From: Escherichia coli
Lineage (GTDB): Bacteria > Pseudomonadota > Gammaproteobacteria > Enterobacterales > Enterobacteriaceae
Length of the DNA: 3,720 nt
Reading direction: 5' to 3' (one strand)
NCBI RefSeq assembly: GCF_003334335.1
Contig: NZ_QOWQ01000082.1
The position numbers were made by a program, and so were the translations under genes. Position 1 is the first letter of the stretch. The number at the start of each line of letters is the position of its first letter. Of this stretch, positions 1 through 3,720 are shown in pieces. The notes beneath the pieces were generated by a model. The model made no database searches. It had not been told where the DNA came from and saw nothing but the letters and a program-made list of their open reading frames with translations.

Positions 1-1347
1 ATGCTGGCTGAAACGGACGAGTACATGGCCGGAGGTAAACGACCGGCCCGTGTTTACCGGGTGGTGAACGGTATTGCGGTACTGCCGGTGACCGGCACGC
101 TGGTGCACCGGCTGGGGGGGATGCGGCCATTTTCCGGAATGACTGGCTATGACGGCATTGTCGCCTGTCTTCAGCAGGCAATGGCAGATAGCCAGGTGCG
201 GGGCATACTGCTGGACATTGACAGTCCGGGCGGGCAGGCCGCCGGCGCGTTTGACTGCGCTGACATGATTTACCGCCTCCGGCAGCAGAAGCCGGTTTGG
301 GCACTGTGTAATGACACGGCCTGTTCTGCGGCCATGCTGCTGGCGTCGGCCTGCTCCCGACGGCTGGTTACCCAGACATCCCGTATCGGCTCCATTGGCG
401 TGATGATGAGCCATGTCAGCTATGCCGGTCATCTGGCGCAGGCCGGTGTGGATATCACGCTGATTTACTCAGGGGCGCACAAGGTGGATGGCAATCAGTT
501 TGAAGCGTTGCCGGAAGAGGTTCGCCAGGACATGCAGCAGCGGATTGATGCGGCGCGCCGGATGTTTGCCGAAAAAGTGGCGATGTATACCGGTCTGTCT
601 GTTGATGCAGTCACGGGAACAGAGGCCGCCGTTTTTGAAGGTCAGTCCGGCATTGAGGCCGGGCTGGCGGATGAATTAATCAATGCGTCGGATGCCATCA
701 GTGTGATGGCCACGGCGCTGAACAGTAATGTCAGAGGAGGCACTATGCCGCAATTAACTGCAACGGAAGCCGCCGTGCAGGAGAACCAGCGAGTGATGGG
801 GATCCTGACATGCCAGGAAGCGAAAGGACGTGAACAGCTTGCCACGATGCTGGCAGGGCAACAGGGCATGAGCGTTGAACAGGCCCGGGCGATTCTGGCC
901 GCGGCGGCACCGCAGCAGCCGGTGGCATCCGCGCAGAGTGAAGCCGATCGCATTATGGCGTGTGAAGAAGCGAACGGTCGTGAACAACTGGCGGCAACGC
1001 TGGCGGCGATGCCGGAGATGACGGTGGAAAAAGCCCGCCCGATCCTGGCGGCTGCACCACTGGCGGATGCCGGGCCCTCACTTCGTGATCAGATCATGGC
1101 CCTGGATGAGGCAAAAGGGGCAGAAGCGCAGGCTGAAAAACTGGCGGCCTGCCCGGGAATGACCGTGGAGAACGCCCGGGCTGTGCTGGCTGCGGGATCA
1201 GGTAAGGCCGAACCGGTCTCTGCATCCACAACCGCCCTGTTTGAACATTTCATGGCGAATCATTCACCGGCAGCGGTGCGGGGTGGCGTGTCACAGACGT
1301 CAGCAGACGGTGATGCGGACGTGAAAATGCTCATGGCCATGCCATGA
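1..1347 (+). CDS. C: Prohead (head maturation) protease, gpC-like, ClpP/S49 fold, with C-terminal scaffold (Nu3-like) domain; probably 5'-truncated by the window edge
   Basis: Frame-1 ORF of 448 aa ending at TGA 1345-1347. By eye it aligns with lambda gpC from about its residue 70 onward (window RPARVYRVVNGIAVLPVTGTLV vs lambda RQARSYQVMNGIAVLPVSGTLV; GILLDIDSPGG vs GILLDMDTPGG; KPVWALCNDTACSAAMLLASACSRRLVTQTSRIGSIGVMM vs KPVWALANDMNCSAGQLLASAASRRLVTQTARTGSIGVMM). The likely nucleophile Ser is the S in ACSAA, codon 325-327, equivalent to lambda gpC Ser166 as I recall it. About 70 N-terminal residues of lambda gpC have no counterpart, so the ATG at 1 is probably internal. Confidence 0.85.
   Translation: MLAETDEYMAGGKRPARVYRVVNGIAVLPVTGTLVHRLGGMRPFSGMTGYDGIVACLQQAMADSQVRGILLDIDSPGGQAAGAFDCADMIYRLRQQKPVWALCNDTACSAAMLLASACSRRLVTQTSRIGSIGVMMSHVSYAGHLAQAGVDITLIYSGAHKVDGNQFEALPEEVRQDMQQRIDAARRMFAEKVAMYTGLSVDAVTGTEAAVFEGQSGIEAGLADELINASDAISVMATALNSNVRGGTMPQLTATEAAVQENQRVMGILTCQEAKGREQLATMLAGQQGMSVEQARAILAAAAPQQPVASAQSEADRIMACEEANGREQLAATLAAMPEMTVEKARPILAAAPLADAGPSLRDQIMALDEAKGAEAQAEKLAACPGMTVENARAVLAAGSGKAEPVSASTTALFEHFMANHSPAAVRGGVSQTSADGDADVKMLMAMP
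745..1347 (+). CDS. nu3: Scaffolding protein, Nu3-like, from an internal in-frame start within the 3' part of the protease gene
   Basis: In-frame ATG at 745-747 preceded by a strong Shine-Dalgarno AGAGGAGG (733-740). The context SNVRGG-T-MPQLTA parallels lambda LSGGR-MTKETQ, where Nu3 starts inside C. Downstream sequence resembles lambda Nu3 (RVMGILTCQEAKGREQ vs RIMGILNCEEAHGREE; GMTVEKARPILAAAP vs GMTVKTARRILAAAP). Predicted product is about 200 aa, longer than lambda Nu3, because of the repeat expansion. Confidence 0.6.
   Translation: MPQLTATEAAVQENQRVMGILTCQEAKGREQLATMLAGQQGMSVEQARAILAAAAPQQPVASAQSEADRIMACEEANGREQLAATLAAMPEMTVEKARPILAAAPLADAGPSLRDQIMALDEAKGAEAQAEKLAACPGMTVENARAVLAAGSGKAEPVSASTTALFEHFMANHSPAAVRGGVSQTSADGDADVKMLMAMP
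781..1197 (+). repeat. Three tandem in-frame copies of a ~40-45-aa scaffold motif (R1 781-912, R2 937-1056, R3 1081-1197), diverged at DNA level
   Basis: Protein repeats: R1 ENQRVMGILTCQEAKGREQLATMLAGQQGMSVEQARAILAAAAP; R2 SEADRIMACEEANGREQLAATLAAMPEMTVEKARPILAAAP; R3 LRDQIMALDEAKGAEAQAEKLAACPGMTVENARAVLAAG. Shared pattern: [R/D]-[V/I/Q]-[I/M]-[G/A]-[I/C/L]-x-x-x-E-A-[K/N]-G-[R/A]-E-x(6-10)-[G/E/P]-M-[S/T]-V-E-x-A-R-x-[I/V]-L-A-A. Confidence 0.65.
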
Positions 1348-1369
1348 AGTCAGTGCTGACCATCAATAT

Positions 1370-1373
1370 GAGG
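1370..1373 (+). promoter_or_regulatory. Shine-Dalgarno for D
   Basis: GAGG 10 nt upstream of ATG 1384. Confidence 0.4.
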
Positions 1374-1383
1374 TTTTAACAAA

Positions 1384-1731
1384 ATGGTGACGAAAACCAT
1401 CACTGAACAGCGTGCGGAAGTACGTATTTTTGCCGGTAATGATCCGGCTCATACCGCCACAGGCAGCAGCGGGATTTCTTCTGCAACACCGGCTCTGACG
1501 CCCCTGATGCTGGATGAAGCCACCGGGAAACTGGTGGTCTGGGATGGACAGAAAGCCGGTAGTGCGGTTGGCATACTGGTACTGCCGCTTGAAGGCACAG
1601 AGACGGTGCTGACCTATTACAAGTCGGGGACCTTTGCGACGGAGGCAATCCGCTGGCCTGACAGTGTGGATGAACACAAAAAGGCAAATGCCTTTGCCGG
1701 CACAGCCCTGAGTCACACGGCTCTGCCGTAA
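1384..1731 (+). CDS. D: Head decoration protein, gpD-like
   Basis: 115-aa ORF with stop TAA 1729-1731. By eye it matches lambda gpD along its length (NDPAHTATG / SDPAHTATA; TPLMLDEATGKLVVWDG / TPLMLDTSSRKLVAWDG; AVGILV / AVGILA; YKSGTF; AFAGTA). Position between C/Nu3 and E fits lambdoid synteny. Confidence 0.9.
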   Translation: MVTKTITEQRAEVRIFAGNDPAHTATGSSGISSATPALTPLMLDEATGKLVVWDGQKAGSAVGILVLPLEGTETVLTYYKSGTFATEAIRWPDSVDEHKKANAFAGTALSHTALP

Positions 1732-1739
1732 CACGTTAT

Positions 1740-1759
1740 CAGGCCACCATGGCGGCCTG
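1740..1759. other. Palindrome / potential RNA hairpin in the D-E intergenic region
   Basis: CAGGCC (1740-1745) and GGCCTG (1754-1759) are exact reverse complements flanking an 8-nt spacer ACCATGGC; the element is nearly palindromic around CCATGG. No T-run follows. Confidence 0.35.
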
Positions 1760-1775
1760 ACTGATTTCTGAATGA

Positions 1776-2824: not shown

Positions 2825-2855
2825 GCGGGGGCGAAATGCCCCCGTGTCTTTTTTC
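2825..2855 (+). terminator. Intrinsic-terminator-like hairpin plus T-run between E and FI (possible attenuator or mRNA 3'-end stabiliser)
   Basis: GC-rich stem CGGGGGC (2826-2832) pairs with GCCCCCG (2838-2844) over a 5-nt loop GAAAT, with a possible G2825-U2845 closing pair. It is followed after 2 nt by TTTTTT (2849-2854). It sits 8 nt after the E stop and ends just before the FI Shine-Dalgarno. Confidence 0.5.
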
Positions 2856-2857
2856 AC

Positions 2858-2863
2858 AGGAGG
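2858..2863 (+). promoter_or_regulatory. Shine-Dalgarno for FI
   Basis: AGGAGG 5 nt upstream of ATG 2869. Confidence 0.5.
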
Positions 2864-2868
2864 CTGAG

Positions 2869-3252
2869 ATGGCAACAAAAGAAGAAAATCTGAATCGTCT
2901 TCGTCAACTGGCTGGCCTGCTGGGGCGCGAGGCGGATATGTCGGGGAGTGCTGCGGATATTGCTCAACGTGTGTCTGAGTGGGAAGAGGAGCTTGCTGTT
3001 TCCCCGGAGGGCATTATGCACTCTGATGAGAGCGGGGCTGATCAAAATCACACAGACGATGGTGAGCAGTTGAACAACACGGATGCTCCGGATGATGTTA
3101 AAGCCGTCCGGGTACGGAAGTGCCTGCAAGTAATGGGGTATTGCCCGGAGACAGGTCGTCCCGTTGAGCTGGCGTTACGGGGTATGCGTGTTCTGGTGCC
3201 ATCATCACTGGCAACGGCCATGATACAGCACGGAACGGCTGAATATGCGTGA
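2869..3252 (+). CDS. FI: Head assembly / DNA-packaging accessory protein, gpFI-like
   Basis: ORF in the frame of track ORF 2821-3252, with start reassigned to ATG 2869 because of the strong SD immediately upstream; the GTG at 2821 lies inside the terminator hairpin. About 127 aa, stop TGA 3250-3252. Position between E and FII and size match lambda FI (about 132 aa). It has an acidic, low-complexity central segment. Sequence similarity to lambda gpFI is only weakly recalled, so the call rests mainly on synteny and size. Confidence 0.75.
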   Translation: MATKEENLNRLRQLAGLLGREADMSGSAADIAQRVSEWEEELAVSPEGIMHSDESGADQNHTDDGEQLNNTDAPDDVKAVRVRKCLQVMGYCPETGRPVELALRGMRVLVPSSLATAMIQHGTAEYA

Positions 3253-3598
3253 TTTTCAGAATGCCTTTGATGCTGCCCTCGCCGGGGTAGACAGTACGAT
3301 CGTTGAAGTGATGGGGCTCTGTGCGCAGTTCACCTCGGGGGCACAGTGTGGCAGCGAAGTTCAGGGGGTTTTTGATGATCCGGAGTCGCTGGGGTTTGCC
3401 GGTGGCGGGGTCCGTATTGAAGGAAGCAGCCCGTCATTATTTGTGCGGACGGATACGGTTCGTGCCGTGCGGCGTGGTGACACGCTGACCATTAATGGTG
3501 AGACATTCTGGGTGGATCGTGTTTCTCCGGATGACGGGGGTAGCTGTTATCTCTGGCTCAACCGTGGGCAACCACCCGCAGTTAACCGGCGACGATAA
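3245..3598 (+). CDS. FII: Head-tail connector / head completion protein, gpFII-like
   Basis: 117-aa ORF with stop TAA 3596-3598. Strong match to lambda gpFII as recalled, especially the C-terminal half (GVFDDPE; GVRIEGSSPSLFVRTD-VR--RRGDTLTI; FWVDRVSPDDGGSC-LWL-RG-PPAVNRRR). Its start ATG 3245 overlaps the FI stop (ATGCGTGA). Confidence 0.9.
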   Translation: MRDFQNAFDAALAGVDSTIVEVMGLCAQFTSGAQCGSEVQGVFDDPESLGFAGGGVRIEGSSPSLFVRTDTVRAVRRGDTLTINGETFWVDRVSPDDGGSCYLWLNRGQPPAVNRRR

Positions 3599-3612
3599 AC
3601 GCAGGGTTAATT

Positions 3613-3720
3613 ATGGCGATAAAAGGGCTTGATCAGGCGATTGACAATCTGAGCCGGGTTCGTAAAAACGCCATTCCGGCGGCTTCAGCAATGACGATTA
3701 ACCGCGTGGCCACAACGGCG
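3613..3720 (+). CDS. Z: Tail completion protein, gpZ-like; 5' end only, runs off the window
   Basis: ATG 3613 preceded by AGGG (3603-3606). Translation MAIKGLDQAIDNLSRVRKNAIPAASAMTINRVATTA matches the lambda gpZ N-terminus as recalled (MAIKGLEQAVENLSRISKTAVPGAAAMAINRVASSA). It is absent from the ORF track because no stop is reached inside the window. Confidence 0.8.
   Translation, partial: MAIKGLDQAIDNLSRVRKNAIPAASAMTINRVATTA

What the first reader, a model, noticed from the sequence alone, without database searches (positions are those of the whole stretch)
1..3720. Ordinary lambdoid head gene module with no accessory cargo and no novel system detected
All seven coding features are syntenic with, and recognisably similar to, the lambda C-Nu3-D-E-FI-FII-Z region. 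Intergenic gaps are short (36, 57, 51 and 14 nt, plus one overlap), leaving no room for inserted moron, defence or anti-defence genes. Reverse-strand ORFs all lie antisense to recognised structural genes. I report this as a negative result rather than claim a new system.
Basis: partly seen in the sequence, partly recalled or inferred. Interest (0 to 1): 0.15.

Follow-up and report, generated by a model that had tools for sequence, protein, structure and literature searches.

The report
Ordinary phage 21-type head genes
This window is a standard, long-known block of head-building genes from a lambda-like (phage 21-type) prophage of E. coli, with no hidden extra gene or defence system in it.

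Summary
The window is the C/Nu3–D–E–FI–FII–Z head module of a phage 21-type lambdoid prophage. It is 98.8% identical to Escherichia phage 204576, about 92.7% to phage 21, and 99.7% to many E. coli chromosomes; 1942 of 5426 complete E. coli genomes hold a match. All seven gene assignments are confirmed by PHROGs, Pfam, solved structures and BLASTP against lambda and phage 21. The stated gaps (36, 57, 51 and 14 nt) and the 8-nt FI/FII overlap are exact. No antisense or off-frame ORF shows purifying selection, and none hits PHROGs or PADLOC. Rfam, tRNA and sigma-70 promoter scans find nothing.

Three refinements. Gene C is cut by the window edge: position 1 is Met54 of a 501-aa protein. FI is only 28% identical to lambda FI and 44% to phage 21 FI. 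The gaps are not empty: stem-loops follow D and E, and the one after E looks like a terminator. Unrelated stem-loops occupy the same positions in lambda, phi80 and distant E-type modules, and the phi80 record annotates the one after E as a terminator. The scaffold domain carries three copies of a ~37-aa motif, the "Tri boxes" of the phage 21 GenBank record (M81255); lambda has one. Verdict: already known, low interest.

The parts
1..1347 (+). Gene C / phage 21 gene 5 homologue: S49 serine protease domain fused to a scaffolding domain. It is 5'-truncated by the window edge, so codons 54-501 are present.
   Evidence: PHROG 53 head maturation protease 4.5e-208. Pfam Peptidase_S49 1.9e-35 at residues 93-240. 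97% aa identity to phage 21 gp5 residues 54-501 and 54% to lambda C. PGAP annotates 'S49 family peptidase' in the 99.7% relative.
745..1347 (+). Nested in-frame scaffolding gene (Nu3 / phage 21 gene 6), 200 aa, with its own Shine-Dalgarno sequence (AGGAGG, 735-740).
   Evidence: The coordinates correspond to gene 6 in M81255 and OL657228. 95% aa identity to phage 21 gp6. AGGAGG plus ATG is invariant in all 63 distinct sequences although the bases just upstream vary.
812..915 (+). Scaffold repeat 1 ('Tri1 box' of the phage 21 record); encodes CQEAKGREQLATMLAGQQGMSVEQARAILAAAAPQ.
   Evidence: repeat_region annotation in M81255 mapped to the window. Pairwise repeat alignments give 19-23 identities over 39-40 aligned positions. 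Lambda Nu3 has a single copy.
952..1062 (+). Scaffold repeat 2 ('Tri box').
1093..1206 (+). Scaffold repeat 3 ('Tri3 box').
1384..1731 (+). Head decoration protein (lambda D / phage 21 shp), 115 aa.
   Evidence: Pfam HDPD 6.3e-25. PDB 1TD3 (phage 21 SHP) 1e-68. 95% identity to phage 21 shp and 57% to lambda D.
1739..1760 (+). Stem-loop in the D-E gap: an invariant 7-bp stem (1739-1745 with 1754-1760) under a variable apex. Half of the relatives carry a perfect 22-nt palindrome here.
   Evidence: Terminator-like scan hit. Fold of the gap -14.7 kcal/mol, z -1.9. Variants listed. Unrelated stem-loops sit at the same position in lambda, phi80, Vibrio ST2-1pr and Vibrio K290.
1789..2817 (+). Major capsid protein (lambda E / phage 21 gene 7), 342 aa.
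   Evidence: Pfam Phage_cap_E 2e-65. PDB 7VI9 2e-132. 94% identity to phage 21 gp7 and 61% to lambda E.
2825..2855 (+). Intrinsic-terminator-like element right after the capsid gene: 9-bp G+C-rich stem (2825-2845) followed by GTCTTTTTTC.
   Evidence: Top hit of the terminator scan. Fold of the gap -22.9 kcal/mol, z -2.9. The stem is unchanged in 62 of 63 distinct sequences; the other differences lie in the loop, the T-run or the flanks. Every one of 7 other E-type modules sampled has a stem-loop here, and phi80's is annotated 'rho-independent transcription terminator'.
2869..3252 (+). DNA-packaging protein FI (phage 21 ORF1 analogue), 127 aa, preceded by AGGAGG at 2858-2863. It is the most divergent gene of the block.
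   Evidence: PHROG 92 9.3e-47. Pfam Packaging_FI 1.4e-13. 44% identity to phage 21 FI and 28% to lambda FI. PGAP annotates gpFI in the relative.
3245..3598 (+). Head-tail joining protein FII (phage 21 gene 8), 117 aa; overlaps FI by 8 nt.
   Evidence: PHROG 82 2.3e-51. NCBIfam tail_join_FII 53.2 bits against a cut-off of 25. Pfam Phage_attach. PDB 1K0H 8.3e-52.
3613..3720 (+). First 36 codons of tail completion protein Z, cut by the window edge.
   Evidence: PHROG 27 tail completion 1.2e-09. 69% identity to lambda Z and phage 21 Z over 32 aa. Annotated as Z or tail protein in relatives.

Best explanation
The window is the central part of the late (head) operon of a phage 21-type lambdoid prophage of E. 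coli, transcribed left to right. The function of each gene below is inferred from homology and established lambda biology; nothing was assayed here. Gene C encodes an S49 serine protease fused to a scaffolding domain. The same frame is re-initiated internally at 745 to make the free scaffold Nu3/gp6. E is the HK97-fold major capsid protein, and D/shp is the trimeric decoration protein that stabilises the expanded head. FI assists terminase-prohead docking, FII makes the filled head competent to bind tails, and Z finishes the tail. The short gaps hold ribosome-binding sites. After D and after E they also hold stem-loops. My inference is that these stem-loops protect the 3' ends of processed mRNA, or partly terminate transcription, so that D and E are made in higher amounts than the downstream genes. 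There is no accessory, defence or anti-defence gene in the window.
For: - Near-identity to known phages and prophages: 98.8% to phage 204576, about 92.7% to phage 21, and 99.7% to many E. coli chromosomes, with matches in 1942 of 5426 genomes.
- Gene-by-gene synteny with the annotated lambda, phage 21, PhiR12 and PGAP records.
- Family hits for every gene from PHROGs, Pfam, NCBIfam and PDB sequences, plus BLASTP identities (33).
- The Nu3 Shine-Dalgarno sequence and ATG are invariant in 63 distinct sequences (60).
- In 62 distinct relatives there is no indel inside any gene compared with the window; the only common indel is 1 nt in the FII-Z gap (22, 23).
- Substitutions favour the annotated frames. 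Synonymous/nonsynonymous counts for the same substitutions scored in each frame are 55/20 in the E frame against 12/62 in the antisense frame, and 33/27 in the shp frame against 10/50 in the antisense frame (25).
- No PADLOC hits (31), no Rfam family at E<=1 (5), no tRNA (8) and no sigma-70 consensus promoter (7).
- Stem-loops after D and E recur at the same positions, with unrelated sequences, in lambda, phi80 and distant E-type modules (42). The phi80 record calls the one after E a terminator (37).
Against: Nothing found argues against the gene assignments. Three weak points remain. FI matches no solved structure by sequence and is only 28% identical to lambda FI, so its assignment rests on profile hits and position. 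The role proposed for the stem-loops is inference: their stems are invariant among close relatives, so there is no covariation evidence, and Q-modified RNA polymerase is expected to read through terminators (established lambda biology). The window's own flanks were not available, so 'no cargo' applies only to these 3720 bases.
Confidence: 0.96

Rival explanations
1. A real overlapping gene is hidden on the minus strand. The best candidate is 1363-1734 (123 aa), which covers the whole shp gene. Others are 642-953, 2005-2334 and 2854-3129.
For: The 1363-1734 ORF is intact in 60 of 62 distinct relatives and is unusually long for an antisense ORF.
Against: It lies in the exact codon-reverse frame of shp, so it stays open whenever shp lacks TTA, CTA and TCA codons; this follows from the coordinates. 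Its substitutions are 10 synonymous against 50 nonsynonymous, while the same sites give 33 against 27 in the shp frame. It has 40 distinct antisense protein variants against 28 for shp. The only minus-strand ORF of at least 50 aa listed across lambda D (L004 1467-1766) is in a different relative frame. There is no PHROG hit at E<0.3, no PADLOC hit and no sigma-70-like promoter on either strand. The other antisense ORFs are broken by stops in 5 to 33 of the 62 relatives.
Confidence: 0.02
2. The intergenic stem-loops are more than passive punctuation. One possibility is a small RNA or processing site released from the 3' end of the D or E message. Another is a DNA-level palindrome in the D-E gap bound by a dimeric protein.
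For: Stem-loops occupy the same positions across very divergent E-type head modules. The hairpin after E folds better than shuffles, z -2.9. In the D-E element many relatives carry a perfect 22-nt palindrome whose central dinucleotide switches between AT and GC while keeping the symmetry.
Against: No Rfam family matches. Stems are invariant among the close relatives, so there is no covariation. An intermediate (CCACGG) exists, and the window's own copy has an A-C mismatch at 1746-1753, so the palindrome is not strictly kept. Terminator-like hairpins after the major capsid gene are already annotated in relatives (phi80), so even if functional this is a known kind of feature.
Confidence: 0.3
3. 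The window hides an inserted moron, defence or anti-defence gene.
For: None within the window. Such cassettes do occur elsewhere in the same kind of prophage: a PADLOC-positive pair lies between the lysis and terminase genes of the 99.7% relative.
Against: The gaps are 36, 57, 51 and 14 nt. Gene order and spacing are the same as in phage 21 and PhiR12 and closely parallel lambda. There are no PADLOC hits for any product. PGAP annotates no extra gene in the relative.
Confidence: 0.01

Closest known systems
Phage 21 head operon, genes 5, 6, shp, 7, ORF1 and 8 (GenBank M81255; complete genome OL657228; genus Jouyvirus)
   Same: Same gene order, spacing and nested 5/6 arrangement. The three 'Tri box' repeats in gene 6 are present. 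The stem-loops after shp and after gene 7 are the same. Protein identities are 97% (gp5), 95% (gp6), 95% (shp), 94% (gp7) and 88% (gp8).
   Different: FI (ORF1) is a different allele: 44% aa identity, 127 against 124 aa, with the DNA match broken there. The Z start and FII-Z gap also differ (69% identity over 32 aa). Closer relatives exist as prophages: 99.7% in E. coli chromosomes and 98.8% in phage 204576.
Phage lambda C-Nu3-D-E-FI-FII-Z (NC_001416, 4418-8555)
   Same: Same seven genes in the same order. Nu3 is nested in C. There are stem-loops after D and after E, and the gaps are short.
   Different: Protein identity is only 54% (C), 57% (D), 61% (E), 28% (FI), 70% (FII) and 69% (Z). Lambda Nu3 has one copy of the ~37-aa scaffold motif, the window has three. 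The stem-loop sequences are unrelated. FI and FII are separated in lambda and overlap by 8 nt here.
Phage phi80 genes 5-10 (FN582354)
   Same: Same module. The record annotates a rho-independent terminator stem-loop directly after gpE, at the position of the window's 2825-2855 element.
   Different: 58% E identity. The phi80 record also annotates a promoter and transcription start in the D-E gap, whereas the window has no sigma-70 consensus match.

Membership tests
Lambda/21-type (E-family) lambdoid head gene module | Major capsid protein of the Phage_cap_E family (PF03864) | tested here: met
   Pfam 2e-65 over the full length. PDB lambda major capsid protein 7VI9 2e-132.
Lambda/21-type (E-family) lambdoid head gene module | Head decoration protein of the D/SHP family (PF02924) immediately upstream of the capsid gene | tested here: met
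   Pfam HDPD 6.3e-25. PDB phage 21 SHP 1TD3 1e-68. Position 1384-1731, 57 nt before E.
Lambda/21-type (E-family) lambdoid head gene module | S49 (SppA-like) prohead protease with a C-terminal scaffolding domain, and an in-frame nested scaffold gene (C/Nu3) | tested here: met
   Peptidase_S49 1.9e-35. PHROG 53 4.5e-208 and scaffold PHROG 8399. An invariant AGGAGG plus ATG at 735-747 in 63 distinct sequences. The internal start is inferred from sequence and from the phage 21 annotation; it was not shown experimentally here.
Lambda/21-type (E-family) lambdoid head gene module | FI, FII and Z follow E in that order | tested here: met
   Packaging_FI 1.4e-13. Phage_attach 7.6e-19 and NCBIfam tail_join_FII above its cut-off. 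PHROG 27 for Z. Order as in lambda and phage 21.
Lambda/21-type (E-family) lambdoid head gene module | Proteins actually assemble a T=7 head: protease activity, D trimers on the shell, FI-assisted packaging | not testable with these tools
   Requires experiments. Inferred from 94-97% identity to phage 21 proteins and from solved structures of homologues.
Phage 21 lineage (Jouyvirus-type head genes) as opposed to lambda proper | Nucleotide identity above 90% to phage 21 across C-E and a triplicated scaffold motif | tested here: met
   Per-segment DNA identity of 91-98% from C to E. Three repeats at the annotated Tri-box positions. The FI segment departs from this: 78% DNA identity over 32% of its length.
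Anti-phage defence or anti-defence cargo (moron) | An extra ORF between or within structural genes with a homologue in defence or moron families | tested here: not met
   Gaps of at most 57 nt. PADLOC gives 0 hits for all products and for the four longest antisense ORFs. PHROGs gives no hit below E=0.029 for ten alternative-frame ORFs.
Known structured RNA families (Rfam 15) and tRNA | A covariance-model match | tested here: not met
   0 matches at E<=1 on both strands. ARAGORN finds 0 genes.
Rho-independent (intrinsic) terminator, element 2825-2855 | G+C-rich stem of at least 5 bp, a short loop, then a T-run on the transcribed strand | tested here: met
   9-bp stem with 7 G-C pairs, a 3-nt loop, then GTCTTTTTTC. 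z -2.9 against shuffles. The reverse strand lacks a T-run (read from the sequence).
Rho-independent (intrinsic) terminator, element 2825-2855 | Actually ends or stabilises transcripts in vivo | not testable with these tools
   Needs 3'-end mapping. Late transcription in lambdoid phages is Q-antiterminated (established knowledge), so full termination is unlikely.

The most novel reading that the evidence does not exclude
The stem-loops that sit directly after the decoration gene and after the major capsid gene are present at the same positions, with unrelated sequences, in every E-type head module sampled, from E. coli to Vibrio and chi-like phages. They may be a conserved post-transcriptional device, either a barrier to 3' exonucleases or a partial terminator. 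Such a device would set the high D:E to low FI/FII/Z stoichiometry, rather than being incidental punctuation.
Probability: 0.3. Interest if true: 0.2.

Novelty: already known. Interest (0 to 1): 0.06.

Why it matters
It matters mainly as a clean negative control: the scan can set this window aside. The region is among the best-studied pieces of phage DNA, and this particular variant is present in roughly a third of complete E. coli genomes. There are two points of residual interest for specialists. One is the positional conservation of stem-loops bracketing the capsid gene. The other is the triplicated scaffold motif, which is single in lambda. The phage 21 record already annotates the triplicated motif, and the phi80 record already annotates the stem-loop after the capsid gene as a terminator.

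Tried and rejected
- Rfam at E<=1 on both strands: no match.
- tRNA/tmRNA scan: none.
- Tandem Repeats Finder: only two trivial low-score arrays. The scaffold repeats are too diverged at DNA level to appear; the repeat finder sees only a 15-nt core.
- Sigma-70 promoter scan: 0 sites against 1.8 expected, so there is no support for an antisense or internal promoter.
- The cII-site pattern TTGYN6TTGY, annotated in the phage 21 record inside gene 6: 2 matches against 0.72 expected, and 36 of 200 shuffles do as well. Rejected as chance.
- Ten alternative-frame or antisense ORFs against PHROGs, and four antisense ORFs against PADLOC: nothing.
- Test for a frameshift or pseudogene in the window against 62 relatives: the only common indel is intergenic.
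- Covariation in the stem-loops: not assessable because the stems are invariant among the close relatives. The apparent AT-to-GC compensatory switch at the centre of the D-E palindrome is not strict.
- Three literature searches returned nothing specific on phage 21 scaffold repeats or on stem-loops in the lambda late operon. The original phage 21 paper is not in the searchable library.
- FI against solved structures by sequence: no hit at E<=0.1.

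
Full report
**Observation**

The six-frame ORF list and the raw sequence show seven plus-strand coding features:
- 1-1347, with an in-frame nested start at 745
- 1384-1731
- 1789-2817
- 2869-3252
- 3245-3598
- an ORF that starts at 3613 and runs off the window

The gaps are 36, 57, 51 and 14 nt, and FI and FII overlap by 8 nt. All minus-strand ORFs of at least 30 aa lie within or across these genes. GC content (0.51-0.65) and a positive GC skew throughout fit one co-oriented operon.

**Identity of the region**

Megablast against phage records gives 98.8% identity over 100% of the window to Escherichia phage 204576. 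It gives 96.3-96.5% to the PhiR12 phages and about 92.7% to phage 21, including the original phage 21 head operon record M81255. Against complete E. coli genomes the best matches are 99.7%, and 1942 of 5426 genomes hold a match.

The annotated records give the same gene order:
- portal
- gene 5 (C) with nested gene 6 (Nu3)
- shp (D)
- gene 7 (E)
- ORF1 (FI)
- gene 8 (FII)
- Z

Lambda itself has the same order.

Window position 1 falls 159 nt into the S49 peptidase gene of the closest relative, and window residues 1-448 align to residues 54-501 of phage 21 gp5. The ATG at position 1 is therefore an internal methionine codon, not a start.

**Protein-level confirmation**

| Gene | PHROGs | Pfam | Solved structure |
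|---|---|---|---|
| C | head maturation protease, 4.5e-208 | Peptidase_S49, 1.9e-35 | SppA chains, about 1e-16 |
| D/shp | head decoration, 2.6e-30 | HDPD, 6.3e-25 | phage 21 SHP 1TD3, 1e-68 |
| E | major head protein, 1.2e-187 | Phage_cap_E, 2e-65 | lambda major capsid protein 7VI9, 2e-132 |
| FI | DNA packaging chaperone FI, 9.3e-47 | Packaging_FI, 1.4e-13 | none at E<=0.1 |
| FII | head closure Hc1, 2.3e-51 | Phage_attach, 7.6e-19 | lambda gpFII 1K0H, 8.3e-52 |
| Z | tail completion, 1.2e-09 | not run | not run |

NCBIfam places FII above the curated cut-off of tail_join_FII.

BLASTP identities:

| Gene | to lambda | to phage 21 |
|---|---|---|
| C | 54% | 97% |
| Nu3 | 54% (over 69 aa only) | 95% |
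| D | 57% | 95% |
| E | 61% | 94% |
| FI | 28% | 44% |
| FII | 70% | 88% |
| Z | 69% | 69% |

FI is therefore the mosaic hot spot. It is also where the DNA match to phage 21 breaks.

I fetched 80 IMG/VR loci through the capsid protein. Together with phage and E. coli records these gave 62 distinct full-length relatives, which I aligned. The IMG/VR, PhiR12 and E. coli relatives are 94.7-99.7% identical to the window; phage 21 is 90%.

The only indel that separates the window from most relatives is a single base in the FII-Z gap, so no gene is frameshifted.

I scored each set of substitutions in both the annotated frame and the alternative frame. Counts are synonymous/nonsynonymous:

| Region scored (ORF limits) | Annotated frame | Alternative frame |
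|---|---|---|
| shp gene, antisense ORF 1363-1734 | 33/27 | 10/50 |
| E, antisense ORF 2005-2334 | 55/20 | 12/62 |
| E, antisense ORF 2464-2712 | 40/9 | 5/44 |
| E, off-frame plus-strand ORF 2537-2719 | 29/10 | 3/35 |

The other ORFs tested behave the same way.

The most striking antisense ORF is 1363-1734 (123 aa), which covers all of shp. It lies in the exact codon-reverse frame, so it stays open merely because shp has no TTA, CTA or TCA codon. It has more distinct protein variants than shp itself, 40 against 28. In lambda, the only minus-strand ORF of at least 50 aa listed across D (L004 1467-1766) lies in a different relative frame. Other antisense ORFs are interrupted in 5 to 33 of the 62 relatives. 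None of ten alternative-frame ORFs hits a PHROG family below E=0.029, and none of the products hits PADLOC. Neither refutation criterion is met.

**Non-coding content**

Rfam finds nothing at E<=1, ARAGORN finds nothing, and no sigma-70 consensus promoter is found on either strand.

The terminator-like scan finds more sites than shuffles do, 10 against 2.5 expected. The two best sites sit in the gaps:
- A 9-bp G+C-rich stem at 2825-2845 followed by GTCTTTTTTC, directly after E.
- A stem at 1739-1760, after shp.

Their folds beat shuffles modestly, with z -2.9 and -1.9. Among close relatives the stems are essentially invariant and the changes fall in loops or at the apex, so there is no covariation evidence.

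I then sampled seven other E-type head modules: lambda, phage 21, phi80, Vibrio phage ST2-1pr, a chi-like Salmonella phage, Proteus phage Saba and Vibrio phage K290. Each has a stem-loop in the 41-70-nt gap after the capsid gene, and most have one after the decoration gene, with unrelated sequences. The phi80 record annotates its copy as a rho-independent terminator.

I infer that these elements protect mRNA 3' ends, or act as partial terminators, favouring D and E expression. Late transcription in lambdoid phages is Q-antiterminated (established knowledge), so complete termination is unlikely. This is a known kind of feature, not cargo.

**Scaffold repeats**

The nested gene 745-1347 has an invariant AGGAGG plus ATG in all 63 distinct sequences, although the preceding bases vary.

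Its product contains three copies of a ~37-aa motif, roughly I-M-x-C-E-E-A-x-G-R-E-Q-L-A-x-x-L-A-x-x-P-x-M-T-V-E-x-A-R-x-I-L-A-A-A-P. Pairwise identity between copies is 19-23 out of about 40 positions. The copies coincide with the 'Tri box' repeat regions annotated 'function unknown' in the phage 21 record. Lambda Nu3 has a single copy. This difference from lambda is real, but the phage 21 record already annotates it.

**Rejected leads**

- The cII-binding pattern annotated in the phage 21 genome inside gene 6 also occurs in the window, but not above chance.
- Direct and inverted repeat searches show nothing beyond the scaffold repeat core.
- Three literature searches gave nothing specific.

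**Comparison with what is known, and verdict**

The window meets every sequence-testable defining feature of the lambda/21-type head module, and within that family it belongs to the phage 21 lineage with a different FI allele. It contains no defence, anti-defence or moron gene, no known RNA family and no supported overlapping gene.

The corrections are minor:
- C and Z are cut by the window edges.
- The module is phage 21-like rather than lambda-like in detail.
- The gaps carry conserved stem-loops.

Novelty: already known. Interest: low (0.06).

The most novel reading not excluded is that the positionally conserved stem-loops are a general stoichiometry-setting device of E-type head operons (probability about 0.3, modest interest).

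Noticed in passing
L005 5585-7214 (E. coli Ecol_AZ155 prophage, 99.7% identical to the window; about 4.8 kb upstream of the window-equivalent): Between the lysis cassette and the small terminase gene sits a convergent two-gene cassette, annotated 'sce7726 family protein' and 'beta family protein'. It hits the PADLOC models cll (3.8e-31) and PD-Lambda-2_C / beta (4.4e-32). It is outside the window, and it is not known whether the window's own genome carries it.
   Followed up: partly
window 1788-2032, matching MT713136.1 (Aeromonas phage AP1, 254 kb) 250152-250396: A 245-bp piece of the E. coli-type capsid gene, 95.9% identical, appears near the end of a jumbo Aeromonas phage record with no annotated feature (H21). 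It looks like an assembly chimera or contamination rather than biology.
   Followed up: no
window 3605-3612 (FII-Z gap): The window has a G-to-T change and a 1-nt deletion (GGGTT-AATTATG) in the presumed Shine-Dalgarno and spacer region of Z, where 53 of 63 distinct sequences read GGGTGAAATTATG. The G-to-T change is seen only in the window. It might weaken Z translation initiation.
   Followed up: partly
L056, corresponding to window 1707-1755: One IMG/VR relative lacks 49 nt, removing the last eight codons and the stop of shp plus the 5' arm of the D-E stem-loop. It may be a decaying prophage or an assembly artefact.
   Followed up: no
window 2869-3252 (FI): FI is the recombination hot spot of the module. 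It is 44% identical in protein to phage 21 FI, while the flanking E and FII are 94% and 88% identical. Within the close relatives FI DNA identity falls into 91-92%, 94-95% and 99-100% classes that do not follow those of the neighbouring genes.
   Followed up: partly
window 1739-1760, with variants in L002, L015, L065 and others: In about half of the relatives the D-E stem-loop is a perfect 22-nt palindrome. Its central CCATGG (an NcoI site) alternates with CCGCGG (a SacII site). A single CCACGG intermediate exists, and the window's own copy carries an A-C mismatch.
   Followed up: partly
L086 640-674 (phi80 D-E gap): The phi80 GenBank record annotates a -35/-10 promoter and a transcription start site just upstream of gpE. 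The equivalent gap in the window shows no sigma-70 consensus match.
   Followed up: no
window 750-763 and 984-997, minus strand: These are matches to the cII-binding pattern TTGYN6TTGY, which the phage 21 genome record annotates as protein_bind features inside the scaffold gene. Two matches against 0.72 expected is not above chance.
   Followed up: yes
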